From: an uncultured bacterium
Lineage (GTDB): Bacteria > Patescibacteriota > Minisyncoccia > Phycocordibacterales > UBA918
DNA: 64,000 nt
NCBI GenBank assembly: GCA_965652925.1
Contig: CBFGXL010000002.1
Span: 4,881 to 68,880 of the forward strand
Direction of reading: 5' to 3'
The position numbers were made by a program, and so were the translations under genes. The notes beneath the pieces are model-generated. The model was not told the DNA's origin and ran no database searches. It saw nothing but the letters and a program-made list of their open reading frames with translations. This document shows, in pieces, positions 1,541 through 23,802 of this stretch (its first letter is position 1; every line of letters begins with the position of its first letter).

Positions 1541-1545
1541 AGTAC

Positions 1546-2601: not shown

Positions 2602-2619
2602 TATTTGAATGATTTTAAG

Positions 2620-6400: not shown

Positions 6401-9400
6401 CCGCTTGCCTCCGCAGCTGCGCGGGCGGTCCACGTGATGCCGTCGGGTGAGGTCATGACGCGATTGGTGCCTGTGTGTGCTACCGCCACAAACGTGCTAT
6501 TACCATAGGCGACCGAGAACCAATCATTAGCCTCCGCAGCTGCGCGGGCGGTCCACGTGATGCCGTCGGGTGAGGTCATGACGCGATTGGTGCCGTCAGA
6601 GGCGACCGCTACAAACAGACCTTCACCATACGTGACTGATACCCACGAGTTAGCTTCCGCGGCAGAACGGGCGGTCCACGTGATGCCGTCGGGTGAAGTC
6701 ATGACACGGTTGGTCCCGTCAAAGGCGACCGCTACAAACAGACCTTCACCATACGTGACTGATATCCACGAGTTAGCTTCCGCGGCAGAACGGGCGGTCC
6801 ACGTGATGCCGTCGGGTGAGGTCATGACGCGATTGGTGCCATCTTGAGAAACGGCAACAAAGGTTCCATTGCCATAGGTAACACCGAGCCACGTCTGATT
6901 ATTGCCTGGAGTACTTCGTGCGGTCCACGTGATGCCGTCGGGTGAGGTGATGATTTGGTCATCTCCATCATACGCAACTGCAACAAAGAGACCTTCCCCG
7001 TAGGTGACTGAATACCAGCCTTGTGTTGACACGTTACTGCTTGTCCATGTTGTTCCTCCTTCAGCATTTGATCCGGAGGAAACCTTGACCACAAGATTGT
7101 TAAATGCCGAATCAGAGCTTAAAGCGCCGGTGAGCGTCTGGTCATTACCTGTAAGAGTAGTTGTCCCTGTTCCCCAGTCAATTGTTCCGTCATTGGTGTA
7201 ATCCCCTGCAATCGACATCAGCGCCGGCGCGTCGACCGTGGTCGATGCAGTGATGGTGAGGTCGCTTGTTGAAGCGTTGTTCTCAAAGACAACACCTCCT
7301 GCAAGACTGCCGCTGTTGGAGGTCATGACACGGTTGGTGCCAGTATCGGATACAGCTACAAGCATTCCATTCCCATATACCACCTCCATCCATCGATTTG
7401 CTTCTGTAGCAGGCGTACCTGTCCACGTGATGCCGTCGGGTGAGGTCATGACTCGGTTCCCTCCTGCTGTAGTGTTGCAGCTAGCGTTGCCGATTCCGCA
7501 TGCAACCGCGACAAACGTATGGCCCGTATGAGTGACCGACTCCCAGTTGTCGGCAGGCGCCGTTCGCTCGGTCCAGGTGATGCCATCGGGTGAGGTCATC
7601 GCAAGCGCAGTTCCATTTCCTACTGCAACAAAGAGTCCTTCGGCGTAGACAATACCGTGCCAAGACGACTGCGTCACAAGGGGCGTCCTTGTGGTCCACG
7701 TGATGCCATCGGGTGAGGTCATGATCGTACCATCCCATGATAAAGCCACAAAGAGGCTGTTGCCGTAGGTGACTACACTCCACTGGCTTGCCTGGGCTGC
7801 AGTTCTATTGGTCCACGTGATGCCGTCAGGAGAGGTCATGACGCGGTTGGTGCCGTCAACTGAAACGGCTACGAACATATCATTTCCAAATGCTACGCTA
7901 TACCACGAGTTAGCCTGTGAGGCGGTTCGTGCGGTCCAGGTGATTCCATCAGGCGAGGTCATCACGCGGTTGGTACCGCTTTCTGCTACTGCAACAAAGA
8001 TGCCATTGCCATATGTGACGGAGTTCCACCCAGCGGACTCGTCCGCAGACGTCCGAGCGGTCCATGTGATGCCGTCGGGAGAGGTCATTACATTATTTGT
8101 GCCTCCATTAGATACCGCAACAAAGAGTCCCTCGCCGTAGACAAGACCCTGCCACGAATTATTGGTAGCTGCACTGCGCGCGGTCCACGTGATGCCGTCC
8201 AGAGCAAGAGTCTGCGGACTATCAAGCGTCAGATCGTTGAACGCCGAAGTGCCGGTCATGTTGCCAGAGAGCGTGGTGGTACCTGTGTATACCGTTGATT
8301 CATCGTAATCAAGAGAATACGGAAACACTGTGTCTGCAGCCGCACCATATATGTATACTTTCGAGCCATCCGCATTGAACTCGATGCTGCATACGGAACT
8401 CTCCTGTGCAGATACCGATTCACCTGCTCCGTCGTATGTTGCAGTAGTTATGTCCCATGGCGTTCCGAGCGTGTACGGGAAAATGGTGTTTGAACCTGTT
8501 CCCACAACATACATCTTGGTACCATCGTCCTTAAGATGCACATCCTGCACAGCACTTTCCTGTCCGCTTATCAGGAAGGACTTGCTGTCATAGGTCGCGC
8601 TGCTGATGACCCATGGAGTTCCGAGCGTATATGAGTATATGCGATTGTTGCTGTCCCCGGATATATACATGCGAGTTCCATCCTCTGTAATGTGCATTCC
8701 GAATGGACTGACATCCTGAGCAATAGAGAAGGACGAGCTGTCATAGCTGGCTGTGGTGACATCCCATGGAGTTCCGAGCGTATAGGAGAATACAGCGTCA
8801 TTCTCTGAACCGAGCATGTACATCTTGGTGCCATCGGTCTTGAATGACACCTTCTCAACCCACTGGTCTTGAGCCAGGATACTGAAGGATTTGTTGTCAT
8901 ACACAGCTGTTGTGACGTCCCACGGGGTTGAAAGAGTGTACGAATACACCGTATCCATGTTGTACCCCGCTACGAACATCCGAGTGCCATCGGGACTGAA
9001 AGCAAGGCTTGTGATGTTATTCTCTTCGCTTGCAGTGGACTTCCCTGCGCCATCGTATACAGCAGTGGTGACGTCCCAGCCGCCGGTTACGGTGGTTGAA
9101 GCAGTAGTGGTTCCATTGATATACACAATGCCTGAGCCGCTGTTGAACGTGCCGCTGTTAGTGTAATCCCCCGTTATGGTCAAGGCGCTTGGGGCAGCCA
9201 CTGTAGAGCCCGAAGCGATCGAAAGATCGCTTGTGCTTGCATTGTCGCTGAAGGTCTTGGTGCTGTTGCCGGAGAAATAGACATCATTGAAAGCGCTCGT
9301 GCTTGCCATGTTCCCCTGGAGTGTTTGGGCCGTTGAGCCGGTGAAGTACACCGCTCCGCCGTTGTGTGTGAAGGTACCGTCGTTGGTATAGTCATCGGCA

Positions 9401-12400
9401 ATCGACAGCAGAGCAGGAGCAACAACCGTGGTCGAAGCGCTTCCGATAGTGAGATCGGTTGTTGAAGCATTGTCAGCAAAAGTGACCATGTTCTCGTACG
9501 AACCATCGCTTGAGACCAGAACCTGGTTTGTTCCGTCGGTACTTACGCCTACAAACTTACCTTCTCCATAGGTCAGGGACCTGAAGAAGTTCGTGTTTGG
9601 CGCGGTCTGTTCGGTCCAGGTGATGCCATCTTCTGAGGTCATGATATAGGTGCTTCCGGTTAATATATCGCCCAAAGATGCAAAGATACCTCCTCCATAG
9701 GCAAGTCCGTACCAGTCACTATTGCCAGGTGTAGTCCTTGCAGTCCACGTGATGCCGTCAGGCGAGGTCATCGCAGTATCGGTCTCACTGACCGCGACGA
9801 ATATACCTTCCCCGTAGACCACCCTCTGCCAGCCGGATGCGCTTGATGCACTACGAGAGGTCCAGGTGATGCCGTCTTGTGAGGTCATGACGCGGTTGGT
9901 TCCCGTATCGGAAACTGCAACATAGGTTCCATTACCGTACGTTATACCCATCCAATCATTTGCCTCTGCAGCTGTTCTGCCGGTCCACGTGATGCCGTCA
10001 GGCGAGGTCATAACGCGGCTGGTGCCGCTATACGCCACCGCAACGAATTGACCATTGCCGTAGGTGATTTCTCTCCATGTAGAGCTTTCGTCACCGGAGG
10101 TTCGCGCAGTCCACGTGATGCCGTCGGGCGAGGTCATGACGCGGCTGGTACCGGTGTTCGCAACAGCCACGAAGAGGCCGCCGCCGTACGTAACCGCTTG
10201 CCACGAATTTCCTACAGCTGGGGTGCGGCTGGTCCAGGTGATACCGACGGGTGAAGACATGACGTCTCCATCCCAGGAGACTGCGACGAAGGTCCCATTG
10301 CCATACGCAACGCCGCTCCACTGCGAGGACGCTGACGCACTTTCCTCTTCCCAGACAGCTGCTGTGTTAGCTAATTCTCCCGTTGAAGTGGCAGTAAGGT
10401 TCCCAAGCGCAGAGTTTCCGGTGAGATTACCCGAAAGGCTGCTGTTCCCTTCGATTACCATTGTGCCATCGTTGTGGTCGAACTCGCCGTTGTTCGTATA
10501 GTTGCCTTCAACCGTGATCGTCCCCGAAGGCGCAGTGACCGTCGCTGTTGCACCAATGGTCAAATCCCCCATCGCAACATCATTCGTGAAAGAAACCGTG
10601 CTGTCATCGGCGGTAATAGTGAAGTCGGCAAAAGTTGTCTCTCCGCTTCCGGTAAAATCCTTATCCGTGTCTGGAGTGCCGCCTCCTTCTGTGCCGGTGG
10701 TGAACTGGAAAACGTCCTGCTCATCAAAGCCGTACATGTACATTTTCACTCCATCGTTCCCAAAGGCAACCTGCATCGGGGAGAATTCAGTGAATGATTC
10801 TGCGCCGAAATCGAATGTCTCACCGCTGACAAGGACCGCTGTAGAGATATCCCACGCAGTGCTGAGCGCATATTCATACATGGCGGACGTAGAGTGGCCT
10901 ACCATGTACATATACATTCCGTCACTGGTGAAATGAATGCCTGTGGGGGTAGTATCCTGCGATGCAACAGAGAATGTCTGGGAAAAGACACCAGTAGAGA
11001 CATCCCATGCGACACTGAGGTTATATTGATGGACCGCATCACTGTTGCCTCCCACCACATACATCTTGGTTCCGTCAGAACTGAATTCCACTCCGTATGG
11101 GTTCGTTTCTTTTCCGCTTACGTCCAAGTAGTCAGTATATGAGGCTGAAGAGACATCCCACGGTGTGGACACAGCATATTCACCCACAGCCGCAGCGCCA
11201 TCTGCAGTTATGTAGAACTTCGTACCGGTATCATTGAAATAGAGGTCTCCAGCAAAGTCTTCCTGCGCCGCCACGCTAAAGGTATTGACCTGCGAAGCTG
11301 TTGAGAGGTCCCAGGCGCTACTGAGCGTGAACTCGCGAACGATGTCTGTTGACCAGCCGAAGGTGTACATCTTCAGTCCGTCTGAACGGAAATGGAGTCC
11401 TGCAGGTCCTGTGTCGGCAATACTTTCCAAGACACTGTCATAAGTTGCTCCGGCCACATCATAACCGACGGTATTGTTCTCAAGATCAATGGTCGTTGCT
11501 CCTGAGGCCTGCGTGAAAGTGCCGTTGTTAGTAAAGTCAGAATTGAGTGTAAGCGCGTCTGGAGCAGCCACTGTTGAGCTCGCAGTGATCGTGAATGCTC
11601 CATTCACTACTGCATCAGCAGTGAAGGTCTGTGTGGTATCTGCATAGGACCCGCTCTCTGAGGTCATGACGCGGTTAGTGCCTCCGTACGAAACTGCTAC
11701 AAAAGTATCTTTTCCGAAGGTAACAGAATTCCAGAATGTAGACTCAGCTGCGCTTCGTGCAGTCCAGGTGATGCCGTCGGGCGAGGTCATCACGCGATTG
11801 GTACCGCTCTCCGCAACGGCAACAAAGAGGCCATTGCCGTAGGTAACTGAAGTCCACGCATTTGCTTCAGCTGCTGTGCGCGCGGTCCAGGTGATGCCAT
11901 CAGGGGAGGTCATCACTTGATCCGTACCGCTTGTTGCAACAACCACAAATGTTCCCTCTCCGTGGGTAATTGAATACCACTGATGATCCCCCGCATCTGT
12001 TCGCGCGGTCCAGGTGATGCCGTCAGGACTTGTCATGACACGGTTCGTTCCATTATTTGAAACGGCTACGAAAAGGTCTTCAGCATATATAACTGAAGTC
12101 CAAGCGTTCGCTTCTGCAGCGCTTCGCGCGGTCCAGGTGATGCCGTCAGGACTTGTCATGACACGGTCAGTTCCACTTCCCACAGCAACAAAGAGGCCAT
12201 TGCCGTAAGTGACGCTGTACCACGTATCATCATTGCCTGCAGCCGAACGAGGAGTCCAATTGACCCCGTCAGACGAGGTCATAACACGATTCGTTCCCGT
12301 TTGAGCAACGGCTACGAAAAGACCATTGCCGTAAGTGACGCTGTACCAGTTATTTGCTTCAGCCTCAGCTCGAGCTGTCCACGTGATGCCGTCAGACGAG

Positions 12401-14931: not shown

Positions 14932-17900
14932 CTATGGTGTTACTTCTATGCTTTGTTCTTCTGCTGTCTCGACCTGCGGTTCTTCTGCAACTTCTTCTTG
15001 TGTCCCCTCTTCTACAACTGGTTCTTCTGCTGTCTCCTCTGTTTGTGGTTCTTCTGTAGGTTCATTCTGTGGCTGTAATTCTGTTTCCTGTGGAGGTTGT
15101 TCTGTCTGCGGCTCTTCAACTGGCGGTTCTTCCTGCATGGCGTCCTCCGGAGGAGGCGGGGTTGCTTCGGTATCGCCCGTGCCACCCTCAGTCTCCCCGC
15201 CTCCTTGCGTTTCAGAAGGCGCAGGTTCCTGCGGTTCTTCCTGCGGCGGAGGTGTCTGTTCCCCGCTTCCTGAGCCATTACTTGGTCGATTGACTTCCAG
15301 CAAGAGTGCACGTAGGTCGTCTGCTGTGAGGCATACACCGTCCACACAAAGCTCGTTTTCAACATATACATTTTCTGCACGCAAGCCCGCAACATTGAGC
15401 ACACCGTCAACAAAGCCCTGCGCGAGCGTCTTGACTCGATCCCAGAGCGTTTCTTCTCCATCACTGCCAAGGACGACATCCGTTGAAGTTGACGTCAGTT
15501 CAGCAAGGAGCGACTCTGCATTAGCCGGATGCCAGCCCAAGTTTACAAACATGAGCGCCTGGCCGACTTTCACTGCCTGCCCGTCTGCGATCTCCTCTTC
15601 CCGCGCATCTTCGCGCGCCAGATCACGCAACGCATCTTGCATTTCCTCGTGTTCGTCAGCAATTGCTGTCTCAACAGACTCGAACCGCTGTGTATCGCGC
15701 GGTGTACACTCCTCCTCTTCCTCGCCGAGTGCGACGCCGCCACCGAAGTAACATCCATCGTGGATGCGCTCATCATCCTCTTGCGAAAGCGGATCGGTCT
15801 TCGGTTCTGCGATATCGTCACCGAACTGATCAATGAATCCTTCCGAATATGCATACTCGCCGTCATAGTCTTCAAGTGCCACACCTACAACCGTGCCGCT
15901 TTCTGTTGCCTTCATACCAACTCCCGGAATCGACGAGAGCATGATCTTGTCCCCTGCCTTGATCGGTCCATTCTCTGTTGAAAGCTTCACCGGCACGCGT
16001 CCTGAAAGTGCAACTGGGTAACCTTCTTGTCCAGAAGTTAAGGAGGTGTCGTCAAATCCGAGTGTGAGTCCCGGCTTGGTTGAGACCACGCCGATGATGT
16101 TCGCACTGTTCTCTTCGTCGGCGCGTTCAATACTGAGGATTCCAGCGGTAGCAATGATCTCTCCTGGCTCAAGGTCCTCTGAGGAGAAATACATTTCGGC
16201 CAAGTCAGAGTTGCCAACTGCCGATGAAACAGACGTGATCTTTCCTGTTGTTGACGCATTACAGCTACCGTCGTTGTCGACACACAAACCCCCGTAACCG
16301 ATCTGCAATCCCGCCATGTTGTTGGTAGTACCGTCTCCGATGGTCGTTGTACCGTGTGCAGTGACCGTGAACTTCGATGTCCCTGCGTTTTGGAAGTCGA
16401 CAAATTTTGAGGTAGTTGATGAGAACGATCCTCCCGAGTTGCCGAAGTTCATTACCAAGCCAGTGCCAGCAAATGCAGACGTATCTTGGAAGAGGCTTAC
16501 GAGGTCTTCGGTAGTGATCGAAGCCGAGTATGCCCGAATGGCATTTCCTTGCGTTGTGCCACGTGTCTGAGCGAAGACTCCAGCAGGCTGGAAGGTACCT
16601 CCTGCGTCACCCTCAGTAGTACCGCGCACACCGAAGGTTCGTCCGAATGCAGAGATACCGGTATTCTCTCCTTGTGTATTGGTGCCACGATGTGCCTGTA
16701 CTTCCAAGCCACGCACAGTGTTCCCAAGCGCAGTATCGTCCTCAATACGAAGCATCTTTCCTACGAGTGTTGAGGTCGCTGTTGGCGCGTTCACTATATA
16801 TGAATTGTCACCGTAGTAGACCGCGCTTGCCGATGAGTTTGTGAAGTTGAAATACTGATGAATGCCCGCAGTCCTCGAACCACTAACGCTCGTTGTCCCC
16901 ATCGCGAGCAGTGATGAAGGCGTGGTGGTACCGATGCCAACAAACCCAGTATCAAGAATACGCATCACGTCAGTTCCACTGCCCGCCTGGATCGTAACGT
17001 CAGCACCGGTGTTATGTGCACCAATTGTGAAGAGATCCGAAGTGTGATTCCAGTTTATCTGTGCACCAACACCGTCAGAAGGAGTTCCGAAGTAGATCAT
17101 CGAGTTAGACGCATCGGGTGTCATGAGGGTAAGGCCAGCATTGCCTGAACCTTCAAGGACAAGTTCATCAGCAGCACTATTCACTGCAGCCCCGCTTGCT
17201 CCACTATACACATGGAGTTTTCCATTCGGAGAGGCAGTTCCTATACCAATATTTCCCGCCCCATTGATCACAAGTCGATCATTAGTACCTAAGGCTGATG
17301 ATGATGAGATCTTGAACTTCGCTCCGTCAGAGTCATCGATACCGATACTCCACTTTTCGTTTGCACCGGAGACCGTTGAGAATTCAATTGCAGCGTCTGC
17401 GGCATTATTGAAGATAGAAAGTTTTTGGTTTGGTGTTGAGGTACCGATACCCATTCGACCATTGGTCAAAGTCGCAACACCATTCCAACCAGCAACATTG
17501 AAAGTGAGGTAGTTTGAGCCGCTCGTAATTGCATTTGCATTACTTGTTGCGTCTAACTCAATATAATCGCTCACACTAGATGGATTGGTTGAACGTATAG
17601 CGCCGTACACATCAAGTTTTGACTGAGGACTTGTAGTACCAATACCCACATTACTCGCAGGAAGAAGTGCGAGATTGCCAGCAGAGTTTCCAAACACAGT
17701 TGCACCATTGTTCTCTACCTCGAGATATGCAGAGCGGTCGTTACCAGAGTCAAAAATATTCATGCTGAAACCATTGAGAATTTCTGCATGTGATTCAATA
17801 CTTACAACATCTCCACTACCAAAGAGTGTTGGATAACCAGATGCTTCGTTCAAGCTCACAAAAAGATAATCACCGCTTGCTCCTGTCATGGTGAAGTCTC

Positions 17901-20900
17901 CATTTGAAGCAATGGATACACCCTCATCGCCTCCATCTCCTGAGAGGAAGTTGGAACCGAGCGCGATGTTGGCGGCGTTACCTGAGAGCGTGAGTGTTGA
18001 CGTAGCGCTCAATGCTGAGAATGTTGCAGTACCTGAGAATGCAGGCGAACTTGAGAACACTGCGCGTTCAGTACCTGTTTCGTCGGTGAGTATTGCCGCA
18101 AGCTCTGCTGAAGTATCGATATCAGATGAGGAAAGCCCACCCCCACCAAGACCAAGCGTCGAGGTGGCGACCCAGTTGAACCCTGAGCCGGTTGATTGCA
18201 AGATCATGCCGTTGCTTCCTGCGCTGTTACTGTTGTCGTATAAGGCTCCGGTGATACGAGCACTCCCAGCGACAGTGAGCATCTGCGACGGTGTTGAGGT
18301 ACCGATGCCAAAGCGGCTTGAGGACATGTTCACTGATGAAAGTGTATTTGCAGACGTGGTTGCCGGTATGTTTGCAAAGAGGAAGTTCCCGATGTTGAGG
18401 AAGTTTGAGGTGTTAGTAGACGTACCCAAGGTATTGTTACCGATCATGATGTTGTTGAATCCGGTAGTTATATTGCCGCCAGTTGTAGTGGTGTTGTCTT
18501 TCGATCCAAGGTAGATGTTGCCGTAGCCAGTGGTGTTGGCATAACCAGCCCGATAGCCTAAAGAGACATTATTAGATCCGGTGGTGTTATTTTGAAGACC
18601 ACTCATGCCTACTGCCGCATTGTTCCTACCCGTAGTGTTGAGGAGTAGAGCATTCCTACCAAGGCCGGTGTTTCCTATACCAGTGAGATTGCCTGAGAGG
18701 GCGTAATTGCCGAGGGCGGTGTTGTTCGAGCCGGTAGTATTGACATCAAGTGTGTCAACACCTATTGCCACATTGCTATTACCCGTGGTGTTTGAGAGAA
18801 GCGAACCACTACCGAAAGCAGTGTTAGCAATTCCTGTGGTATTGGCGAAAAGTGAAGAATAGCCAACGGCAGTGTTTTGATTTCCTGTAGTGTTAGAGTA
18901 GAGCGTATTGATACCGACAGCAGTGTTCGAACCTCCCCCAGTAATAGAAGATGGCAGTGCGTTAAAGCCGCTTGCATAGTTGGTTCCGCTCTCACCCAAA
19001 TTCATAAGCCGTGTGCCATTACGAGCAAAGAGATTGATTGATGGGGTGTAGGTAATTTCCCGAACAGAAACGTTATCGATAGTATATAAGGTGCCCTCAC
19101 TATAGTATGAGCTATCTACGAATAGCGTGTCAGTTCCCGTGTAATCAGCAGTGAAAATAACTTGATTCTGTGCAAAGTAGCTATTATTTCCTTGAAGGCT
19201 ATTATTGGTGAAATAAACAGAGGCAGAGGAGCTTGCGGCGCCGCTAAAATCATATTGGATCAGATAGGTGTGCCCTGCCACGGTAGAAATGTTTTGTGAG
19301 ACAGTCGCATCGTTACATGCAGAAACACACGATACGCGGACATTGTTGCTGTTGTATGAAGCATCAGAACCAAGCGTCCAACCAGTGGCACTACCGGTGA
19401 AGGAACCGTTCGTAATGAGCTCGCTGCCGATGATAGTGCTTGAGGCTTGAGCGGTGAGTGAGGCGTACGAGGTAGAAGTTCCTATAGTAACCGTCTTGCT
19501 GTGAAGATCATCGGTAATACGAGCACTTCCTGCAACAGTGAGGAGCTGAGATGGGGTTGTGGTGCCGATACCGACGTTGCCAGTGCCTGTAACGGTGAAG
19601 TCAACGCCTGCATCACCTCCTGTCTCGACACTTAAATTACCAGATGCATTCATATACAGAAGTGCGTAGGTTGAAGGATTATAAAGTCCGATACCAGCAT
19701 TCGAAGTGCCAGATGTCTCTGTGATCTGTAAAAATGGGTAGGTAGATGCGACCAACTCGATATCATCAGCAGGCGAGGTCGTACCAATACCTATACGTCC
19801 CGCGCTCGTAACGAAGATACCCTCATCCCCTCCATCTCCCGAGAGCCAATTAGAACCAAGTGCAATATTTGCGGAAGATCCTGAGAGCGTGAGACGTCCT
19901 GACTGTGTGGTAGTTGCAAAAGAACCTGTACCGGTAGCAGTAAGGCTCGAGAAGGTTGCCGTACCGGAGAACGCAGGAGCGTTCGAGAAGACGAGGCGGC
20001 CGGAGCCGGTTTCATCGCCAACAATGGCAAGCAGTTCGCTTGAAGTATCAAGAAGACCGTTGTGAGTGAGGGTTGCGTCTGCAACGATCGCGTCGAGTTC
20101 TGCGTAGGTGTCGATATCTGCTGAGGTGAGACCGCCCGTGATGCCGAGTGTTGAAGTCGCAACCCAGTTGAACCCTGAGCCGGTAGACTGCAAGACCATA
20201 CCGTTTGAACCTGCGCTGTTGCTGTTGTCGTAGAGAGCTCCGGTGATGCGGGCTCCTCCGGCGACCGTCAAAAGTTGAGACGGGGTTGAGGTTCCAATAC
20301 CCACATACCCCGCCCCATTGATCACTAGGCGATCATTGGTACCAAGTGCTGAAGAAGAAGAGATCTTGAACTTAGACCCGTCGCTGTCATCAATGCCGAT
20401 CGTCCACTTCTCATTTGCTCCTGAGATAGTTGAGAACTCGATCGCAGCGTCTGCGCCGTTGTTGAAGATAGAAAGCTTCTGGTTAGGAGTAGTGGTGCCG
20501 ATACCGAGGCGGCCAGTTGAGAGGATGAGTCCTGCCCTATTGTTTGATGAGAGAAGTGACGAAGAAGCAGTGCCCTCGATGGTGAGTGCGCCATTAATGA
20601 GAGCATTCTGACCGACGTTGAGTCCACCGCGCACATTCACCCCTTGGTCGAAGGTTGCAGTTTGCTTGGTGCGGAAGATGTCGAAGAGTCCAGAGCCCGC
20701 GAACATGTTGGAGACGGTGAGGCCGGAGATATCGATTATGGCGAGGTTGTTGGAGGCAGACCCTGTCACGTACACATAGTTGCCGGAGACACTGACAGAT
20801 CGGGGACCATCCATCACATTTGCGTCATTTGGATCCCAATTACCGACGGTGACCGGTGCGGCCGGATCAGAAATATTGACGATAGCGAGGTTCTGTGAGA

Positions 20901-23802
20901 GACCTCCGCTTACATACGCATAATTACCGGAAATTGCGACCCCTTGCCCGTAGTTCATCACATTTGCGTCATTTGGATCCCAATTACCGACGGTGACCGG
21001 TGCGGCCGGATCAGAAATATTGACGATAGCGAGGTTGTCCGAAACTGCACCTGATATGTATGCATAGTTGCCAGAGATGGCAGCGAACTGAGGACTATCC
21101 ATCACATTTGCGTCATTTGGATCCCAATTACCGACGGTGACGGGATTTGCGGGATTTGAGATGTCGATTATGACGAGGTTATCTGAGACGCTACCTGCTA
21201 CATACGCATAGTTGCCAGAGACCATAACGAAACCAGCATTATTCATCACGTTCGTATCATTTGGATCCCAATTACCGACGGTGACGGGGTTCGTTGGGTT
21301 GCTGATGTCGATTATAGCGAGGTTGTTAGAGACTCTTCCAGGTACATACGCATAGTTGCCTGAGACCTCAACAGAAGAAGGATAATCCATCACATTTGCG
21401 TCATTTGGATCCCAATTACCGACGGTGACCGGTGCAGTTGGGTCTGAGACATCAACGATGACGAGATTGTCAGAGTTAGCTCCCGATACATACGCATAAT
21501 TTCCAAAAACGCTAACACGAGGTCCGCCATCCATCACATTTGCGTCATTTGGATCCCAATTACCGACGGTGACCGGTGCGGCCGGGTCGCTGATATCGAC
21601 GATTGCAATATTATTAGAATTATTCCCTCCAACGTATGCATAGTTCCCTGAGATAGTGCCGTAGGTTGTCCCACTCATCACATTTACGTCATTTGGATCC
21701 CAGTTGCCAATTGTTGTTGGGGTGGAGACGTTTCCGAGAATATGCGCACTTCCCCATACGTCGAGCTTCGCAGAAGGTGTGGTCGTTCCAATACCCACAT
21801 TCCCGGCACTCGTCACATACACACCCTCATCTCCTCCATCTCCCGAAAGCCAGTTGGAGCCAAGCGCGATGTTTGCAGCTGTGCCTGAGAGCGTGAGGGT
21901 TGAGGTTGCGGTCAAGGCAGAGAATGTTGCGGTGCCCGAGAATGCAGGTGAACCTGAGAAGACAAGACGGCCTGAGCCGGTCTCATCATCCATGAGCGCA
22001 AGCAGCTCAGAAGAAGCGTCGATCTCGTCAGCATTGAGTACCGCGATGCCTGATTCCTGAAGCGCAATGCTTGAGAAGTTAACAGTACTGACGCCTGTGT
22101 TGGAAGTGATATCCACGAAGTTGGCACCACCTGTAGCATCGTCGAAATTGAATCGAAGATCCTCGTCGTTTCCATTCCCCTGTCCTTGAATGATGAGCAT
22201 ACCATCTGCATCAGTATCAAGAAGAACGCCTGTTGACGATGAATCGATACGGATCGAGGTGGCCTCGAATTGATTGTTCACCGTGAGAACTTCAGAGGAA
22301 GTTACCGACAATGTCACGTCGGTGCCTGCAGGAGAAGCCTCCCATGCAATCGATTCAGCATTCCCGAGCCGCAATACACCAGTGTCTGCAACATCAGCGT
22401 TGGTTGAGGCGAAGATGGGGCTAAGAGCGCTCGTTGTGAATGTCGGACTGGTACCAAAGACCAAGGCTCCTGAGCCGGTCTCCCCCGTCACTGCAGTAGC
22501 TAGGTTGGCGCTTGAGGGGGTCGCGAGGAACGTAGCCACGCCGGTACCAAGGCCTGAAACTCCCGTACTGATCGGAAGACCTGTTGCGTTGGTTAAGGTA
22601 CCGCTTGACGGCGTCCCGAGTGCACCGCCATTGACGACGAACGATCCAGCAGTACCGACGTTTACGCCAAGTGCTGTGAGGACTCCCGTACCTGCTCCGG
22701 TGAGTCCGGTAGAGATCGGCAACCCAGTTGCGTTGGTGAGCGTTACTGCAGACGGCGTGCCGAGGTTCGGGGTGGTGAGTGTTGGTGAAGTTGCAAAAAC
22801 AAGGGCGCCGGAGCCAGTTTCGTCAGTGAGTGCGTTCGCAAGTGCCGCCGAAGCAGCGGTTGTGGTAGCACGGCTTGAAGAATCGAGGAAAAGCGCCCGT
22901 GAAGCGGTCAGTGAGGAGAACGTGACTGCGCCAGAAAGTGATGGGGTTGCGAGGGTGGGACTCGTCCCGAAGACTGCCGCTCCTGAGCCGGTCTCGTCTC
23001 CTAGGATTGCTGCGAGTTCTGCGGAGGTATCGATGAGTCCATTGTGTGTCAGGGTGACGTCAGCAACAATAGCATCGAGTTCTGCGTAGGTGTCGAAGGC
23101 GCTTGTTGAAGCATAGAGCGTATTGAGGTAGGTGGTGTTGATGGCAAGGGTGTTTCCTGAGTTCTGGAGGCCTGTACCGGTAAGATCAGTGAACCGCTCC
23201 CCATTGACCACGAGGTTCGTGGTCGTCGCTGTTATCGCCGTAAGCTGCGTGATCGTAGACGATGCGTTGCTTATAAGTCCGCCGGTGAATGTGAGCAATC
23301 CTGAAGCAGTATCAGCTTGATCGCTGCGAAGGAGCGAGGTTGAGGCAACGCCGCCCACCGTATCGGAATCAGCGGCATGTTCTGCTTCAAAAGCGGCAGG
23401 GACTGCGCCAATGACCTTTCGTGGAGTCATTTCAGCATCACCTTCGATCGAAACCCCGAGGTACAGTGGCTGATTAAAGTCCACACTTGTTAAAGGAGTA
23501 GTGCTACCAAGCATAATGGAGAACAAACCACTGGTAACCTGCACCTCATTGGTCAGTGTCTCTGTCCAGATGGGTGAACCACCCGTTGCTTGGGTATAGA
23601 GCGAAAATTCCATGTCATAGAGACCGTCAGCAACAGCTATGCTCGTTGAGGCCGTTAATTTTCCCTGGTAGTTGATCGTGGGTGTAAATGCCGCCAAAGC
23701 GTGTACTCCAAACAAGACATACAGTGCCACCACTCCGCAGAGTATGAGCGGCAGCAGAAGAATATGCGGTTGTATATACCGGTTATTCATTTCTGTTTTC
23801 AA
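14932..23802 (-). CDS. Giant (2956 aa) membrane-anchored surface protein containing an N-terminal tail-fibre-like domain, eight LVIVD repeats, G-I-G-T-T-x-P tail-fibre-like modules, a CBM4/9-like jelly-roll domain, Hep_Hag-like N-T-T-G repeats, and an acidic Pro/Glu-rich C-terminal tail.
   Basis: It is an 8.9-kb ORF with an N-terminal TM segment (ILLLPLILCGVVALYVLFGVHALAAF). It has eight 48-aa NWDPNDANVM...GNYAYV.G..S.NLVIVDVSDPTAPVTVG repeats (the LVIVD motif). The modules ELDAIV.DETGSG and G-IGTTTPS.KL recur several times. It carries ITNGSFTGSATGWT (CBM4/9-like) and a C-terminal tail PEEPQTEQPPQE.... Confidence 0.85.
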   Translation of the reverse strand: MKTEMNNRYIQPHILLLPLILCGVVALYVLFGVHALAAFTPTINYQGKLTASTSIAVADGLYDMEFSLYTQATGGSPIWTETLTNEVQVTSGLFSIMLGSTTPLTSVDFNQPLYLGVSIEGDAEMTPRKVIGAVPAAFEAEHAADSDTVGGVASTSLLRSDQADTASGLLTFTGGLISNASSTITQLTAITATTTNLVVNGERFTDLTGTGLQNSGNTLAINTTYLNTLYASTSAFDTYAELDAIVADVTLTHNGLIDTSAELAAILGDETGSGAAVFGTSPTLATPSLSGAVTFSSLTASRALFLDSSSRATTTAASAALANALTDETGSGALVFATSPTLTTPNLGTPSAVTLTNATGLPISTGLTGAGTGVLTALGVNVGTAGSFVVNGGALGTPSSGTLTNATGLPISTGVSGLGTGVATFLATPSSANLATAVTGETGSGALVFGTSPTFTTSALSPIFASTNADVADTGVLRLGNAESIAWEASPAGTDVTLSVTSSEVLTVNNQFEATSIRIDSSSTGVLLDTDADGMLIIQGQGNGNDEDLRFNFDDATGGANFVDITSNTGVSTVNFSSIALQESGIAVLNADEIDASSELLALMDDETGSGRLVFSGSPAFSGTATFSALTATSTLTLSGTAANIALGSNWLSGDGGDEGVYVTSAGNVGIGTTTPSAKLDVWGSAHILGNVSTPTTIGNWDPNDVNVMSGTTYGTISGNYAYVGGNNSNNIAIVDISDPAAPVTVGNWDPNDANVMDGGPRVSVFGNYAYVSGANSDNLVIVDVSDPTAPVTVGNWDPNDANVMDYPSSVEVSGNYAYVPGRVSNNLAIIDISNPTNPVTVGNWDPNDTNVMNNAGFVMVSGNYAYVAGSVSDNLVIIDISNPANPVTVGNWDPNDANVMDSPQFAAISGNYAYISGAVSDNLAIVNISDPAAPVTVGNWDPNDANVMNYGQGVAISGNYAYVSGGLSQNLAIVNISDPAAPVTVGNWDPNDANVMDGPRSVSVSGNYVYVTGSASNNLAIIDISGLTVSNMFAGSGLFDIFRTKQTATFDQGVNVRGGLNVGQNALINGALTIEGTASSSLLSSNNRAGLILSTGRLGIGTTTPNQKLSIFNNGADAAIEFSTISGANEKWTIGIDDSDGSKFKISSSSALGTNDRLVINGAGYVGIGTSTPSQLLTVAGGARITGALYDNSNSAGSNGMVLQSTGSGFNWVATSTLGITGGLTSADIDTYAELDAIVADATLTHNGLLDTSSELLAIVGDETGSGRLVFSNAPAFSGTATFSSLTATGTGSFATTTQSGRLTLSGSSANIALGSNWLSGDGGDEGIFVTSAGRIGIGTTSPADDIELVASTYPFLQITETSGTSNAGIGLYNPSTYALLYMNASGNLSVETGGDAGVDFTVTGTGNVGIGTTTPSQLLTVAGSARITDDLHSKTVTIGTSTSYASLTAQASSTIIGSELITNGSFTGSATGWTLGSDASYNSNNVRVSCVSACNDATVSQNISTVAGHTYLIQYDFSGAASSSASVYFTNNSLQGNNSYFAQNQVIFTADYTGTDTLFVDSSYYSEGTLYTIDNVSVREITYTPSINLFARNGTRLMNLGESGTNYASGFNALPSSITGGGSNTAVGINTLYSNTTGNQNTAVGYSSLFANTTGIANTAFGSGSLLSNTTGNSNVAIGVDTLDVNTTGSNNTALGNYALSGNLTGIGNTGLGRNALLLNTTGRNNAAVGMSGLQNNTTGSNNVSLGYRAGYANTTGYGNIYLGSKDNTTTTGGNITTGFNNIMIGNNTLGTSTNTSNFLNIGNFLFANIPATTSANTLSSVNMSSSRFGIGTSTPSQMLTVAGSARITGALYDNSNSAGSNGMILQSTGSGFNWVATSTLGLGGGGLSSSDIDTSAELAAILTDETGTERAVFSSSPAFSGTATFSALSATSTLTLSGNAANIALGSNFLSGDGGDEGVSIASNGDFTMTGASGDYLFVSLNEASGYPTLFGSGDVVSIESHAEILNGFSMNIFDSGNDRSAYLEVENNGATVFGNSAGNLALLPASNVGIGTTSPQSKLDVYGAIRSTNPSSVSDYIELDATSNANAITSGSNYLTFNVAGWNGVATLTNGRMGIGTSTPNQKLSIFNNAADAAIEFSTVSGANEKWSIGIDDSDGAKFKISSSSALGTNDRLVINGAGNIGIGTASPNGKLHVYSGASGAAVNSAADELVLEGSGNAGLTLMTPDASNSMIYFGTPSDGVGAQINWNHTSDLFTIGAHNTGADVTIQAGSGTDVMRILDTGFVGIGTTTPSSLLAMGTTSVSGSRTAGIHQYFNFTNSSASAVYYGDNSYIVNAPTATSTLVGKMLRIEDDTALGNTVRGLEVQAHRGTNTQGENTGISAFGRTFGVRGTTEGDAGGTFQPAGVFAQTRGTTQGNAIRAYSASITTEDLVSLFQDTSAFAGTGLVMNFGNSGGSFSSTTSKFVDFQNAGTSKFTVTAHGTTTIGDGTTNNMAGLQIGYGGLCVDNDGSCNASTTGKITSVSSAVGNSDLAEMYFSSEDLEPGEIIATAGILSIERADEENSANIIGVVSTKPGLTLGFDDTSLTSGQEGYPVALSGRVPVKLSTENGPIKAGDKIMLSSIPGVGMKATESGTVVGVALEDYDGEYAYSEGFIDQFGDDIAEPKTDPLSQEDDERIHDGCYFGGGVALGEEEEECTPRDTQRFESVETAIADEHEEMQDALRDLAREDAREEEIADGQAVKVGQALMFVNLGWHPANAESLLAELTSTSTDVVLGSDGEETLWDRVKTLAQGFVDGVLNVAGLRAENVYVENELCVDGVCLTADDLRALLLEVNRPSNGSGSGEQTPPPQEEPQEPAPSETQGGGETEGGTGDTEATPPPPEDAMQEEPPVEEPQTEQPPQETELQPQNEPTEEPQTEETAEEPVVEEGTQEEVAEEPQVETAEEQSIEVTP
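20680..21830. repeat. Eight or so tandem copies of a 144-bp (48-codon) unit with high nucleotide identity inside the 2956-aa gene, encoding LVIVD repeats.
   Basis: The core catttgcgtcatttggatcccaattaccgacggtgac recurs at 20821, 20965, 21109, 21253, 21397 and 21541, with diverged copies at ~20677 and ~21685, an exact 144-bp period. Confidence 0.85.

What the first reader, a model, noticed from the sequence alone, without database searches (positions are those of the whole stretch)
14932..23802. 2956-aa giant protein built from phage-tail-fibre-like and LVIVD propeller modules with a three-fold super-repeat
Five module types are visible directly in the sequence: (i) an N-terminal INYQGKLT…YDMEFSLY…W.ETLTN domain, typical of tail-fibre-like surface proteins; (ii) eight LVIVD repeats; (iii) an ~100-aa module ELDAIV.D…ETGSG..VF..SP.F.GTATFS.LTA…NIALGSN.LSGDGGDEG that recurs about every 650 aa at DNA ~21800, ~19900 and ~17950; (iv) a CBM4/9-like ITNGSFTG..TGWT jelly-roll; (v) a 15-residue NTAVG…NTTG Hep_Hag-like beta-helix repeat. 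Long near-identical segments also occur, for example ~17200-17500 versus ~20300-20560, and there are three GIGT(S/T)TP…KLSIFNN…KFKISSSSALGTNDRLVING copies. These indicate recent internal duplication or gene conversion. This resembles a tail-fibre repurposed as a cell-surface adhesin.
Basis: seen in the sequence. Interest (0 to 1): 0.7.

Follow-up and report, generated by a model that had tools for sequence, protein, structure and literature searches.

The report
Phage-fibre-like giant surface protein, Patescibacteria
This is a real 2,952-residue secreted protein of an ultrasmall Patescibacteria (CPR) bacterium, built from phage tail-fibre-type modules and ending in a phage-type self-folding domain; it sits at a conserved chromosomal locus where related species keep the two ends and swap the middle, so it is most likely a cell-surface attachment fibre.

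Summary
The ORF is real. The likely CDS is 14932..23790(-), 2,952 aa, and an identical or near-identical protein occurs in several independent assemblies.

- There are 7 LVIVD repeats, not 8.
- An about 140-230-aa "frame" module does recur about every 650 aa. The sequence between copies differs, and a fourth, diverged copy exists.
- The "near-identical" segments are only about 79-80% identical.
- KLSIFNN modules: two, not three.
- The "Hep_Hag" repeat has a 17-residue period. It has no Hep_Hag match but is clearly homologous to annotated phage tail-fibre repeats (E to 6e-23).
- CBM4/9 is not confirmed.
- The N-terminal domain is a widespread, unannotated beta-sandwich with no detectable tail-fibre link.

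New findings:
- The C-terminal 560 aa are conserved. They contain an invariant S|DLAE motif that aligns with the autocleavage start of the phi29 gp12 intramolecular chaperone (Peptidase_G2) and with the C-termini of jumbo-phage virion proteins.
- Some family members carry Peptidase_S74 at the C-terminus instead.
- All 76 genome loci retrieved are Patescibacteria, with conserved synteny.

Best reading: a Sec-exported, probably trimeric, chaperone-assisted surface fibre. Trimerisation, cleavage and binding function are inferred, not shown.

The parts
14932..23790 (-). Giant gene, likely CDS from ATG (2,952 aa plus stop). The mechanical ORF starts at the TTG at 23802.
   Evidence: P0001 is 100% identical, 2,952 aa; the ATG overlaps the stop of the upstream ORF; three full-length copies in other assemblies.
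23692..23790 (-). Sec-type signal peptide (aa 5-37, ...VHALA|AF).
   Evidence: Read directly from the sequence. 178 of 194 family members have an uncharged hydrophobic stretch of at least 12 aa and an A-x-A-like site just before the N-domain. No dedicated signal-peptide predictor was run.
23398..23691 (-). Conserved N-terminal beta-sandwich domain (INYQGKLT...), the family's N-terminal end.
   Evidence: Present in 84 of 120 hits, nearly always at aa ~30-45. 30,589 representative clusters match at E<=1e-3. AF2 pLDDT is 83-92 over residues 11-90 of the model. No significant PDB or viral fold match and no Pfam match.
23248..23355 (-). Connector 'VGGVASTSLLRSDQADTASGLLTFTGG'.
   Evidence: Only a weak, non-significant profile match to the T4 gp34 long-tail-fibre proximal subunit (E 0.087).
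22123..23250 (-). ETGSG-repeat region, including the diverged fourth copy of the frame module (aa 181-340).
   Evidence: ETGSG at aa 270, 328, 441.
21733..22152 (-). Frame module copy 1 (ETGSG 607, SGDGGDEG 653, GIGT 670).
20713..21738 (-). Seven LVIVD repeats (48-aa period), probably a 7-bladed beta-propeller.
   Evidence: Pfam PF08309 E 1.9e-54 with 7 stretches. 144-nt tandem period. Motif counts. phrog_22523 E 7.5e-27.
20251..20523 (-). GIGT...KLSIFNN...KFKISSSS module, copy 1.
   Evidence: 80% aa and 79% DNA identity to copy 2. Weak Phage_T4_gp36 match, E 0.029, sub-threshold.
19768..20310 (-). Frame module copy 2 (GIGT-YDNSNSAGSNG-ELDAIV/ETGSG-SGDGGDEG-GIGT).
   Evidence: aa ~1166-1215 are 60% identical to a Synechococcus phage S-SKS1 protein annotated baseplate wedge subunit, with weaker matches in other cyanophages including one annotated tail fiber protein (E 1e-7).
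19003..19410 (-). NGSFTG...GW beta-sandwich (putative jelly-roll) module.
   Evidence: Only sub-threshold DUF642 matches (E 0.0015; 3 of 5 homologues). No CBM4_9 match and no meaningful PDB match.
18358..18945 (-). About 8 copies of a 17-residue repeat (N-x-A-x-G-x3-L-x2-N-T-T-G), a phage tail-fibre-type repeat domain.
   Evidence: Period from NTTG positions. tblastn matches in 98 phage records, annotated among those listed as tail fibre, tail spike, tail structural protein or endo-N-acetylneuraminidase, best E 6e-23. Pairwise E 6e-33 to pelagiphage HTVC112P gp48, which ends in Peptidase_S74. No Hep_Hag match.
17878..18318 (-). Frame module copy 3.
17197..17469 (-). GIGT...KLSIFNN...KFKISSSS module, copy 2.
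16207..16995 (-). Conserved pre-cleavage domain (aa 2270-2532) with an invariant CVDxDGxC.
   Evidence: 52-71% identical in 47 hits, always near the C-terminus. AF2 monomer confidence is low. No phage match.
15823..16206 (-). DLAE domain (aa 2533-2660), a Peptidase_G2-like intramolecular-chaperone / beta-tulip module with a putative autocleavage site at S2532|D2533.
   Evidence: D-L-A-E is invariant in alignment A1. The only PDB sequence hit is 3gqh (phi29 gp12 C-terminal fragment), aligned from its residue 1 (E 0.13). Pfam Peptidase_G2 scores 15.3 bits here (E 0.014) and matches 6 of 17 homologues (best 1.2e-6). C-termini of jumbo-phage proteins match at E 4e-8 to 3e-5, including an MS-verified virion structural protein of PA5oct. 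The AF2-confident region starts just after the motif (pLDDT rises around residue 265-271 of A1) and Foldseek matches phage cement / decoration proteins.
15313..15822 (-). C-terminal extension with a long helix, a beta-hairpin and the conserved ELCVDGVCxTADDL motif.
   Evidence: A related C-x-C motif also follows the S74 domain in other family members.
14935..15312 (-). Glu/Pro/Gln/Thr-rich low-complexity tail (126 aa).
   Evidence: Homologues have comparable tails of 80-173 aa.

Best explanation
The gene encodes a Sec-exported, modular fibre of the cell envelope of a Patescibacteria (Paceibacteria/Parcubacteria-type) bacterium, assembled from phage tail-fibre/tailspike-type parts.

Proposed mechanism:
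1. The signal peptide directs export and is removed.
2. The conserved C-terminal block acts as an intramolecular chaperone and trimerisation module, as in phi29 gp12. This block is the pre-cleavage domain plus the DLAE/Peptidase_G2-like beta-tulip domain.
3. The block nucleates folding of the long beta-rich shaft from the C-terminal end. It is then probably released by autocleavage between S2532 and D2533.
4. The conserved N-terminal beta-sandwich is the constant end. It docks the fibre to a conserved partner on the cell.
5. The variable interior carries the ligand-binding specificity for the host or partner cell surface. It holds a 7-bladed LVIVD propeller, a jelly-roll-like module and 17-residue tail-fibre repeats, spaced by a recurring frame module.
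6. At the same chromosomal locus, related species keep both ends and exchange the interior, in the way phage receptor-binding proteins diversify.

Shown here: the ORF, its module map, the homologies, the Patescibacteria-restricted family and the synteny.
Inferred: export, trimerisation, autocleavage, which end is cell-proximal, and the attachment function.
For: - ORF and recurrence: the ORF is real and recurs in independent assemblies without length change.
- Signal peptide: a hydrophobic stretch and an A-x-A-like site precede the N-domain in 178 of 194 family members.
- Phage tail-fibre homology in three separate modules:
  - the 17-residue repeats (E 6e-33 to a pelagiphage tail fibre that ends in Peptidase_S74);
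  - aa ~1166-1215 against cyanophage proteins annotated baseplate wedge subunit or tail fiber protein;
  - the DLAE domain against the C-termini of proteins from the jumbo phages PA5oct, Phosso and Atu_ph07. In PA5oct the protein is an MS-verified virion structural protein encoded next to a tail-fibre gene.
- DLAE motif: it is invariant in 17 sequences down to 40% identity. It aligns with residue 1 of the crystallised, cleaved-off phi29 gp12 C-terminal fragment 3gqh.
- Peptidase_G2: 6 of 17 homologues match at E<=0.1 (best 1.2e-6), and precomputed PF11962 annotations exist on P0008, P0088 and P0107.
- Literature: the phi29 gp12 C-terminal domain is an intramolecular chaperone needed for trimer folding and is cleaved off afterwards. 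K1F tailspike carries a beta-propeller inside a trimeric spike (PMC3357383).
- Alternative C-terminal end: about 17 of the 84 N-domain-bearing hits lack the G2-like end, and several of them end in Peptidase_S74 chaperone sequences.
- Structure model: the AF2-confident domain begins just after the DLAE motif and resembles trimeric phage cement proteins.
- Distribution: all 76 GTDB loci are Patescibacteria.
- Synteny: obg-gatB-2 membrane proteins-giant-(second giant)-small protein-WxLIP-small protein is conserved. The distance between the N- and C-terminal domains varies from 4.2 to 10.6 kb.
- Module content varies among homologues: LVIVD in 24, the jelly-roll in 6 and the 17-mer repeats in 67 of 120 hits.
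Against: - This protein itself is below the Pfam Peptidase_G2 threshold (15.3 vs 25 bits). The 3gqh hit has E 0.13.
- Foldseek did not list 3gqh among the 50 best matches. It returned gpD-like cement proteins with modest TM-scores of 0.37-0.59.
- The 264 residues upstream of the motif were modelled with low confidence, so no triple-beta-helix could be seen.
- No multimer prediction was possible, so trimerisation is untested.
- phi29 gp12 folds in the cytoplasm, whereas this protein would fold outside the membrane.
- The N-domain has no identified partner and no similarity to the neighbouring small proteins.
- 423 residues follow the putative cleavage site, far more than the 163-residue gp12 fragment. 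They may have a role, such as wall anchoring, that argues against release.
- No binding specificity, expression or localisation data exist.
Confidence: 0.6

Rival explanations
1. It is a monomeric 'beads-on-a-string' giant adhesin or S-layer-associated protein. The C-terminal DLAE/beta-tulip domain and the Pro/Glu-rich tail stay attached and serve as a wall-associated anchor or spacer. There is no trimerisation and no autocleavage.
For: - A long Pro/Glu-rich tail and 423 residues lie after the motif.
- The tail and the CxxxxC motif are conserved regardless of chaperone type.
- The Peptidase_G2 score is sub-threshold.
- Large repeat-rich putative adhesins are already reported for Parcubacteria (PMC4508563).
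Against: - The D-L-A-E motif is invariant and aligns with the gp12 cleavage start.
- The same C-terminal position is occupied in other family members by Peptidase_S74, a domain known from trimeric fibres.
- The tail-fibre-type repeats are homologous to phage tail-fibre and tailspike proteins. Such fibres are known to be trimeric (PMC3357383).
- No sortase signal, SLH domain or C-terminal TM segment is visible.
Confidence: 0.2
2. It is a surface-displayed tailspike-like depolymerase. The propeller and/or jelly-roll modules are catalytic or substrate-binding units that degrade host-cell envelope polymers at the contact site, and are not purely adhesive.
For: - Phage tailspikes with intramolecular chaperones are often enzymes. 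The K1F endosialidase has a beta-propeller in a trimeric spike (PMC3357383).
- Several phage hits to the 17-mer repeat region are annotated endo-N-acetylneuraminidase.
- Paceibacteria deform the host surface at attachment sites (PMC10936435).
Against: - No glycosidase, lyase or peptidase family other than LVIVD and the weak G2 hit was detected.
- The LVIVD repeat has no known catalytic function.
- The endo-N-acetylneuraminidase label on the phage hits cannot be taken as evidence of catalysis, because the matched region is the repeat domain.
Confidence: 0.12
3. It is a phage or prophage tail-fibre gene (or a tailocin fibre) that happens to lie in this contig, not a cellular gene.
For: Three modules have phage structural-protein homologues.
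Against: - The neighbours are obg, gatB, secA, murB and envelope polysaccharide genes.
- No capsid, portal, terminase or baseplate genes were found among the neighbouring ORFs scanned.
- The same synteny holds across many Patescibacteria lineages.
- A Sec signal peptide is present.
- The N-domain is absent from 50,697 phage records.
Confidence: 0.03
4. It is an assembly artefact: repeats were collapsed or joined into a chimeric giant ORF.
For: The gene is repeat-rich, and two assemblies carry it split into two ORFs.
Against: - Three independent full-length copies of identical length differ by 1-3 substitutions and have no indels.
- Intragenic repeats are only 64-83% identical, so they are easy to assemble.
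- Homologues with the same ends exist in hundreds of genomes.
Confidence: 0.01

Closest known systems
Bacillus phage phi29 gp12 pre-neck appendage (tailspike) and its C-terminal auto-chaperone, MEROPS/Pfam Peptidase_G2 (PF11962; PDB 3gqh, 3gq7)
   Same: - Both have a C-terminal domain following a beta-rich fibre or spike.
- The D-x-A-E motif lies at the point where the gp12 fragment begins.
- Homologues of this protein pass Peptidase_G2.
- The inferred role is trimer folding followed by release.
   Different: - This protein is cellular, Sec-exported and about 3.5 times longer.
- Its own Pfam score is sub-threshold.
- Its post-motif region is 423 aa, with an extra helical/Cys region and a Pro/Glu tail.
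- The predicted fold of the confident part resembles gpD-like cement proteins, not the listed gp12 chain.
- No pectin-lyase-like beta-helix was detected.
Phage tail fibres and tailspikes with a Peptidase_S74 intramolecular chaperone (K1F endosialidase, T5 pb1, pelagiphage HTVC112P gp48)
   Same: - The 17-residue repeat domain is 41-51% identical to that of HTVC112P gp48.
- Some members of the Patescibacteria family end in S74.
- K1F provides a precedent for a propeller inside a trimeric spike.
   Different: - This protein has no S74 domain.
- It is chromosomal and has a signal peptide.
- It is many times longer and has a different N-terminal attachment domain.
Jumbo-phage virion structural proteins (Pseudomonas phage PA5oct gp359, Sinorhizobium phage Phosso XYS97449, Agrobacterium phage Atu_ph07)
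   Same: They share the C-terminal xDLAExY...GV(V/I)ST.PG...VALxGRVPVK domain at ~35% identity. In PA5oct and Phosso the genes lie next to tail-fibre or giant virion-protein genes.
   Different: The phage proteins are 478-626 aa and end soon after the domain. Nothing else is shared.
Trimeric autotransporter adhesins (YadA/Hia; Hep_Hag, YadA_anchor)
   Same: Both are long, repeat-rich, probably trimeric surface fibres with Asn/Thr/Gly-rich short repeats. One homologue is labelled 'trimeric autotransporter adhesin' by JGI.
   Different: - There is no Hep_Hag, YadA_stalk or YadA_anchor match.
- There is no outer-membrane beta-barrel anchor.
- The repeat period is 17 residues.
WxL surface-protein clusters of Firmicutes (large WxL protein + small WxL protein + WxLIP; PMC10599100)
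   Same: The gene order resembles a WxL cluster: giant protein(s), then two small secreted proteins flanking a WxLIP_PGBD protein with a C-terminal TM helix. This trio is conserved downstream of the giant gene in many Patescibacteria.
   Different: - No WxL domain was detected in the giant protein or in the small proteins.
- The N-domain is unrelated to the small proteins by hhalign.
- Any link between the fibre and this trio is conjecture.
Large (>1500 aa) repeat-containing putative adhesins noted in Parcubacteria genomes (Nelson & Stegen 2015, PMC4508563)
   Same: Same lineage, same size class and same inferred role.
   Different: That report gives no domain architecture, no chaperone domain, no phage relationship and no synteny.

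Membership tests
LVIVD repeat (Pfam PF08309) | Match to the family HMM above the gathering score, in tandem copies. | tested here: met
   181.2 bits against a 20.2-bit cutoff, E 1.9e-54, 7 stretches with a 48-aa period.
Peptidase_G2 / phi29 gp12-type intramolecular chaperone (PF11962) | Match to the family HMM above the gathering score (25 bits). | tested here: inconclusive
   This protein scores 15.3 bits, E 0.014. 6 of 17 aligned homologues (40-71% identical) match at E<=0.1, best 1.2e-6. PF11962 is precomputed on P0008, P0088 and P0107.
Peptidase_G2 / phi29 gp12-type intramolecular chaperone (PF11962) | C-terminal position with a conserved acidic cleavage motif (Ser|Asp-x-Ala-Glu) at the start of the released fragment. 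| tested here: met
   S2532|D2533-L-A-E is present, and D, L, A, E are invariant in A1. The motif aligns to residues 1-4 (DFAE) of chain 3gqh_A. The catalytic role of Asp/Glu is recalled from memory and was not checked.
Peptidase_G2 / phi29 gp12-type intramolecular chaperone (PF11962) | Autocatalytic release and chaperone-dependent trimerisation. | not testable with these tools
   Needs biochemistry or at least a multimer prediction.
Peptidase_S74 (PF13884, endosialidase chaperone) | Match to the family HMM at the C-terminus. | tested here: not met
   No hit in this protein. The domain is present in other family members and in the phage fibre HTVC112P gp48.
Hep_Hag / YadA-type trimeric autotransporter adhesin | Hep_Hag (PF05658) head repeats and a C-terminal YadA_anchor beta-barrel. 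| tested here: not met
   No Pfam hit at E<=5 for the repeat segment or at E<=1 for 12 homologous segments. No PDB hit. The period is 17 residues. The C-terminus is a chaperone-like domain plus a PE-rich tail.
CBM4_9 carbohydrate-binding module | Match to PF02018 or to a solved CBM4/9 structure. | tested here: not met
   Only DUF642, 18.7 bits against a 27-bit cutoff. The profile search against PDB gave only chance-level antibody and filamin hits. No structure model was made.
Phage tail-fibre repeat domain (no curated family; defined here by homology to annotated fibres) | Significant sequence similarity over most of the module to annotated phage tail-fibre or tailspike proteins. | tested here: met
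   98 phage records, 72-77% of the query covered, 40-54% identity, E down to 6e-23. Pairwise E 6e-33.
Tail-fibre N-terminal (virion-attachment) domain | Sequence or fold similarity of the N-terminal domain to a known fibre N-terminus. | tested here: not met
   No Pfam hit. No tblastn hit in phages. Foldseek against PDB and BFVD gave no match at E<=0.001, only generic Ig-like folds. The only hint is a weak T4 gp34 match to the connector after the domain (E 0.087).
WxL surface cluster (PMC10599100) | WxLIP (DUF916/PGBD + TM) protein together with WxL-domain proteins in one cluster. | tested here: inconclusive
   WxLIP_PGBD scores 29.2 bits against a 27.3-bit cutoff in ORF 1546..2601. No WxL domain was detected in the giant or small proteins.

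The most novel reading that the evidence does not exclude
Paceibacteria-type Patescibacteria carry, at a fixed core-genome locus, a domesticated phage receptor-binding-fibre system that serves as the episymbiont's host-recognition organelle.

The locus is obg-gatB, two membrane-tethered HTH-like proteins, one or two giant fibres, and a WxLIP-containing trio. In this reading:
- the N-domain docks on the conserved locus-encoded envelope proteins;
- the G2- or S74-type chaperone folds the trimer outside the cell;
- host range evolves by cassette exchange of the interior modules, as in phage tail fibres.
Probability: 0.3. Interest if true: 0.75.

Novelty: new variant of a known kind. Interest (0 to 1): 0.55.

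Why it matters
- Attachment problem. Patescibacteria make up a large share of bacterial diversity and many live attached to other cells. The molecules that mediate attachment outside Saccharibacteria are essentially unknown. A conserved-locus fibre with phage-type architecture and swappable interior gives a concrete, testable candidate for host recognition. It could also serve as a marker for predicting host range from genomes.
- Chaperone domains outside viruses. The finding would extend intramolecular-chaperone fibre folding, known from cytoplasmically assembled phage tailspikes, to a Sec-exported cellular protein. It also hints at a link between Peptidase_G2 chaperone domains and gpD-like cement proteins.
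- An unannotated domain. The N-terminal domain defines a very large family (about 30,000 clusters at 50% identity) with no match in Pfam-A or NCBIfam.

Tried and rejected
- Whole-protein BLAST self-comparison returned only the identity hit. It was replaced by a chunked self-BLAST.
- Scans of the whole protein gave only LVIVD in Pfam, nothing in NCBIfam, one PHROG of unknown function, and nothing in PDB.
- The AF2 model of the 561-aa C-terminal block had mean pLDDT 50. Only ~125 residues were usable, so the upstream domain fold remains unknown.
- The N-domain fold searches against PDB and BFVD gave only generic Ig-like matches.
- Hep_Hag and CBM4/9 were tested with single sequences and with family profiles and were not found.
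- The pre-cleavage domain and the N-domain have no phage tblastn hits.
- hhalign of the N-domain against the neighbouring small secreted protein found no relationship.
- A database search with the DLAE domain alone was hampered by the word index. It returned only 22 short proteins, mostly from small contigs. These include ~225-270-aa proteins from an Altiarchaeales archaeon and a Patescibacterium, and are not informative for function.
- Literature searches found no description of this architecture in Patescibacteria.
- A prophage origin and an assembly artefact were rejected on context, synteny and recurrence.
- Repeat copy-number variation was looked for among cluster members and not seen, but only five assemblies were available.
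- No rRNA, tRNA or other Rfam family lies in the window, so taxonomy rests on the names of homologous records.


Full report
**1. The observation**

The window contains one uninterrupted reading frame at 14932..23802 on the minus strand, 2,956 codons from a TTG.
- A public metagenome protein (P0001, 2,952 aa) is 100% identical from the ATG four codons further in.
- That ATG overlaps the stop codon of the upstream ORF (ATGAATAA). The likely CDS is therefore 14932..23790.
- The next gene, a second giant ORF of 3,833 aa, starts 3 nt after the stop.
- Three full-length copies from other assemblies differ by 1-3 substitutions and have no indels. Two further assemblies carry the gene split by an apparent frameshift.
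- The ORF is therefore not an assembly chimera. The few genomes available show no repeat-number variation.

**2. Internal repeats**

A chunked self-BLAST, DNA repeat finders and motif counts give the following picture.
- Seven LVIVD units of 48 aa lie at aa 689-1030.
- A 'frame' module recurs, with the order GIGT - YDNSNSAGSNG - ELDAIV/ETGSG - SGDGGDEG - GIGT.
- SGDGGDEG starts at aa 653, 1321 and 1954, a spacing of 668 and 633 aa.
  - A fourth, diverged copy lies at aa 181-340.
- There are two KLSIFNN...KFKISSSS modules (aa ~1094-1184 and ~2112-2202).
- About eight 17-residue repeats lie at aa ~1620-1815.
- The ~650-aa periodicity is real for the frame module (E 1e-30 to 1e-38), but the sequence between frames is unrelated. 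It is a propeller in one interval and a jelly-roll-like module plus 17-mer repeats in the next. It is a recurring spacer with different inserts, not a triplicated 650-aa unit.
- The 'near-identical' segments are 79% identical in DNA and 80% in protein. All intragenic DNA repeats are 64-83% identical. That is not evidence of recent duplication or gene conversion.

**3. Curated libraries**

- Pfam finds only LVIVD on the whole protein (E 1.9e-54).
- NCBIfam finds nothing. PHROGs finds one family of unknown function over the propeller. PDB sequences give nothing.
- Segment-wise Pfam scans give only sub-threshold hints: Peptidase_G2 (E 0.014), DUF642 (0.0016) and Phage_T4_gp36 (0.029).
- Hep_Hag and CBM4_9 are not found with the sequence or with profiles of homologous segments.

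**4. The family**

A database search returned 412 relatives. Nearly all are 1,600-5,100 aa. The source names that exist point to Kaiserbacteria, Parcubacteria, Nomurabacteria, Vogelbacteria and Minisyncoccia. Mapping the modules onto the 120 best hits shows two conserved ends.

N-terminal domain (aa ~38-185):
- It occurs in 84 hits, almost always starting at residue ~30-45.

C-terminal block (aa 2270-2830):
- It is about 560 aa and 52-71% identical among most hits (43% in two outliers).
- By a shorter probe (aa 2420-2830) it occurs in 74 hits, 67 of which also carry the N-domain.
- It is always followed by an 80-173-aa low-complexity tail.

Other observations:
- About 17 N-domain proteins lack this block. 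Several of them end in sequences typical of Peptidase_S74 chaperones (PF13884 is precomputed on many).
- Interior modules are variable. LVIVD is in 24 hits, the jelly-roll-like module in 6 and the 17-mer repeats in 67.
- Preceding the N-domain, 178 of 194 family members have an uncharged hydrophobic stretch and an A-x-A-like site. That is a Sec signal peptide.
- A profile of the N-domain finds 30,589 representative clusters at E<=1e-3 and 13,810 at <=1e-10 in 1.84 billion representatives. This is a very large family with no match in Pfam-A or NCBIfam.

**5. The N-terminal domain**

- AF2 gives a confident beta-sandwich for roughly the first 90-98 residues of the model.
- Foldseek finds no match at E<=0.001 in PDB or in viral predicted structures, only generic Ig-like folds.
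- tblastn finds nothing in 50,697 phage records.
- The only hint of a fibre relationship is a non-significant match of the following connector (VGGVASTSLLRSDQADTASGLLTFTGG) to T4 gp34 (E 0.087).
It is the constant N-terminal end of this cellular family.

**6. The C-terminal block**

Alignment and sequence matches:
- In a 17-sequence alignment (A1), D-L-A-E at aa 2533-2536 and two Cys pairs are invariant, even at 40% overall identity.
- The A1 profile has a single PDB hit. It is 3gqh, the cleaved-off C-terminal fragment of phi29 pre-neck appendage protein gp12, with 'DLAEmyfs' aligned to residues 1-8 'DFAEYFES' of the chain (E 0.13).
- Six of the 17 aligned homologues hit Pfam Peptidase_G2 (best 1.2e-6). 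One hits Phage_cement_2.

Structure model:
- The AF2 model is confident only from about residue 265-271 of A1 to about 390. That is just after the DLAE motif (D is residue 264).
- Foldseek matches this part to trimeric phage cement/decoration proteins: BB1, HFTV1, Pam3, TW1, T1 and lambda-like. The best E is 4e-4 and target-normalised TM is 0.37-0.59.

Phage relatives:
- tblastn finds the domain at the C-termini of proteins of jumbo phages PA5oct, Phosso and Atu_ph07. E-values run from 4e-8 to 3e-5 at ~35% identity, with alignments that begin at xDLAE.
- PA5oct gp359 is an MS-verified virion structural protein. Its gene lies next to a long-tail-fibre gene and a giant virion-protein gene.
- The Phosso protein is annotated hypothetical and lies next to a giant virion-protein gene.

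Interpretation:
- According to PMC3357383, the gp12 C-terminal domain is an intramolecular chaperone required for trimer folding and is cleaved off afterwards.
- I therefore read aa 2533-2660 as a Peptidase_G2-like chaperone/trimerisation module with a probable S2532|D2533 autocleavage site.
- This protein's own Pfam score is below threshold, and neither cleavage nor trimerisation has been tested.

**7. Other phage-related modules**

- The 17-residue repeat region hits 98 phage records. Coverage is 72-77%, identity 40-54% and E down to 6e-23.
- The listed records are annotated tail fibre, tail structural protein, tail spike, T4-like proximal tail fibre, endo-N-acetylneuraminidase, virion structural protein or, in one case, FhaB-like adhesion protein.
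- Against pelagiphage HTVC112P gp48 ('putative tail fiber') the pairwise E is 6e-33. That phage protein ends in Peptidase_S74.
- The stretch GIGTSTPSQLLTVAGGARITGALYDNSNSAGSNGMVLQSTGSGFNWV is 60% identical to a Synechococcus phage S-SKS1 protein annotated baseplate wedge subunit. It is 57% identical to a DSL-LC02 protein annotated tail fiber protein (E 1e-7 and 2e-6).
- Three independent modules therefore tie this protein to phage fibres.

**8. Context and distribution**

- The neighbours are cellular: gatB, obg, secA, murB, a Wzy-type ligase and a large envelope-polysaccharide cluster. There are no RNA genes in the window.
- A scan of one genome per GTDB species with the C-terminal profile found 308 relatives. 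All 76 loci fetched are Patescibacteria: Kaiser-, Pacei-, Parcu-, Nomura-, Giovannoni-, Taylor-, Doudna- and Zambryskiibacteria, plus bins labelled Saccharibacteria.
- tblastn of the window's neighbours against these loci shows a conserved order:
  - obg
  - gatB
  - a 343-aa membrane protein
  - a 242-aa membrane protein
  - the giant gene
  - often a second giant gene like 3427..14928
  - a 230-aa secreted protein
  - a WxLIP_PGBD protein with a C-terminal TM helix
  - a 253-aa secreted protein
- In several loci the trio follows the first giant gene directly (for example L014, L043, L054).
- The distance from the N-domain to the end of the C-domain varies from about 4.2 to 10.6 kb between loci.
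- This is therefore an orthologous, chromosomal locus with conserved ends and a replaceable interior. It is not a prophage.

**9. Mechanism (inference)**

1. The signal peptide exports the chain.
2. The C-terminal block trimerises and templates folding of the beta-rich shaft.
3. The chaperone is probably released at S|D.
4. The N-terminal beta-sandwich holds the fibre on a conserved envelope partner.
5. The propeller, the jelly-roll-like module and the tail-fibre repeats bind the surface of the partner organism.

Precedents and background:
- K1F tailspike has a propeller within a chaperone-folded trimeric spike (PMC3357383).
- Paceibacteria attach to and deform host cells (PMC10936435).
- Large repeat proteins of Parcubacteria were already suggested to be adhesins (PMC4508563).

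Weak points:
- Chaperone membership is sub-threshold for this sequence.
- No multimer model was made.
- 423 residues follow the putative cleavage site.
- The fold match is to cement proteins and not to the gp12 chain.
- The docking partner is unknown. The N-domain is unrelated to the neighbouring small protein by hhalign.

**10. Comparison with known systems and novelty**

- The protein works like a phage tail fibre or tailspike with a C-terminal intramolecular chaperone. It shares real homology with such proteins in three modules.
- It is not a trimeric autotransporter: it has no Hep_Hag repeats and no anchor.
- It is not demonstrably a CBM4/9 protein.
- It does not itself pass the Peptidase_G2 threshold.
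- Searches of the literature library found no description of this architecture or of the conserved locus in Patescibacteria.
- I rate it a new variant of a known kind, of moderate interest. Interest would be higher if the locus proves to be the host-recognition apparatus of these episymbionts.

Noticed in passing
window 3427-14928 (-): A second, unrelated giant ORF (3,833 aa) starts 3 nt after the first. It has four DUF6242 stretches, EPTP repeats, and N-terminal repeats with a sub-threshold match to the tail-fibre Gp53-like_C domain (E 9e-4) and to the WIAG-tail domain. A 59%-identical orthologue follows the closest relative of the first giant in L036. p2-like sequence occurs in 37 of 60 related loci that have enough downstream flank.
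   Followed up: partly
window 779-3312 (-): ORFs 2620-3312, 1546-2601, 779-1540: A trio of two small secreted proteins flanks a WxLIP_PGBD (DUF916) protein with a C-terminal TM helix. It resembles a Firmicutes WxL surface cluster (PMC10599100), but no WxL domain was detected. The WxLIP gene lies downstream of the giant gene in 16 of 60 Patescibacteria loci with at least 4 kb of downstream flank, and one of the small genes in 20 of them.
   Followed up: partly
window 23783-24511 (-) and 24555-25586 (-): Two paralogous bitopic membrane proteins have an N-terminal HTH_17-like segment (E 0.048, sub-threshold). They are conserved immediately upstream of the giant gene in 23-25 related loci. The stop codon of the proximal one overlaps the giant gene's ATG. 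They could be membrane-tethered regulators or fibre partners.
   Followed up: partly
window ~33000-61800: A large envelope-glycan cluster lies here. It includes a Wzy_C + TPR protein, an AT3-SGNH acyltransferase, a fused ATP-sulfurylase/APS kinase (suggesting a sulfated polymer), a flippase, several GT4 glycosyltransferases, an epimerase, a CBM96 protein and an LTD + PKD protein. A VirD4/HerA-like ATPase lies at 61797-63761.
   Followed up: no
A1 residues ~265-390 = window 15823-16206 (-): The domain after the DLAE motif is predicted to have the fold of gpD-like phage cement/decoration proteins, and one homologue hits Pfam Phage_cement_2 (E 4.3e-5). This hints at a relationship between Peptidase_G2 chaperone domains and capsid cement proteins. 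Short proteins (~225-270 aa) matching this domain also exist in an Altiarchaeales archaeon and a Patescibacterium.
   Followed up: partly
window aa 829, 837, 876 of the giant protein (DNA ~21170-21320): The only substitutions shared among otherwise identical copies from other assemblies (A829V, T837A, F876L) all fall in LVIVD blades 3-4. There are too few to test for selection.
   Followed up: no
P0002 vs window aa 1202-1937: A partial JGI homologue is 85-95% identical over the frame-2, jelly-roll and 17-mer repeat block but only ~59-77% identical over the otherwise conserved C-terminal block. This would fit recent exchange of an interior cassette between lineages.
   Followed up: partly
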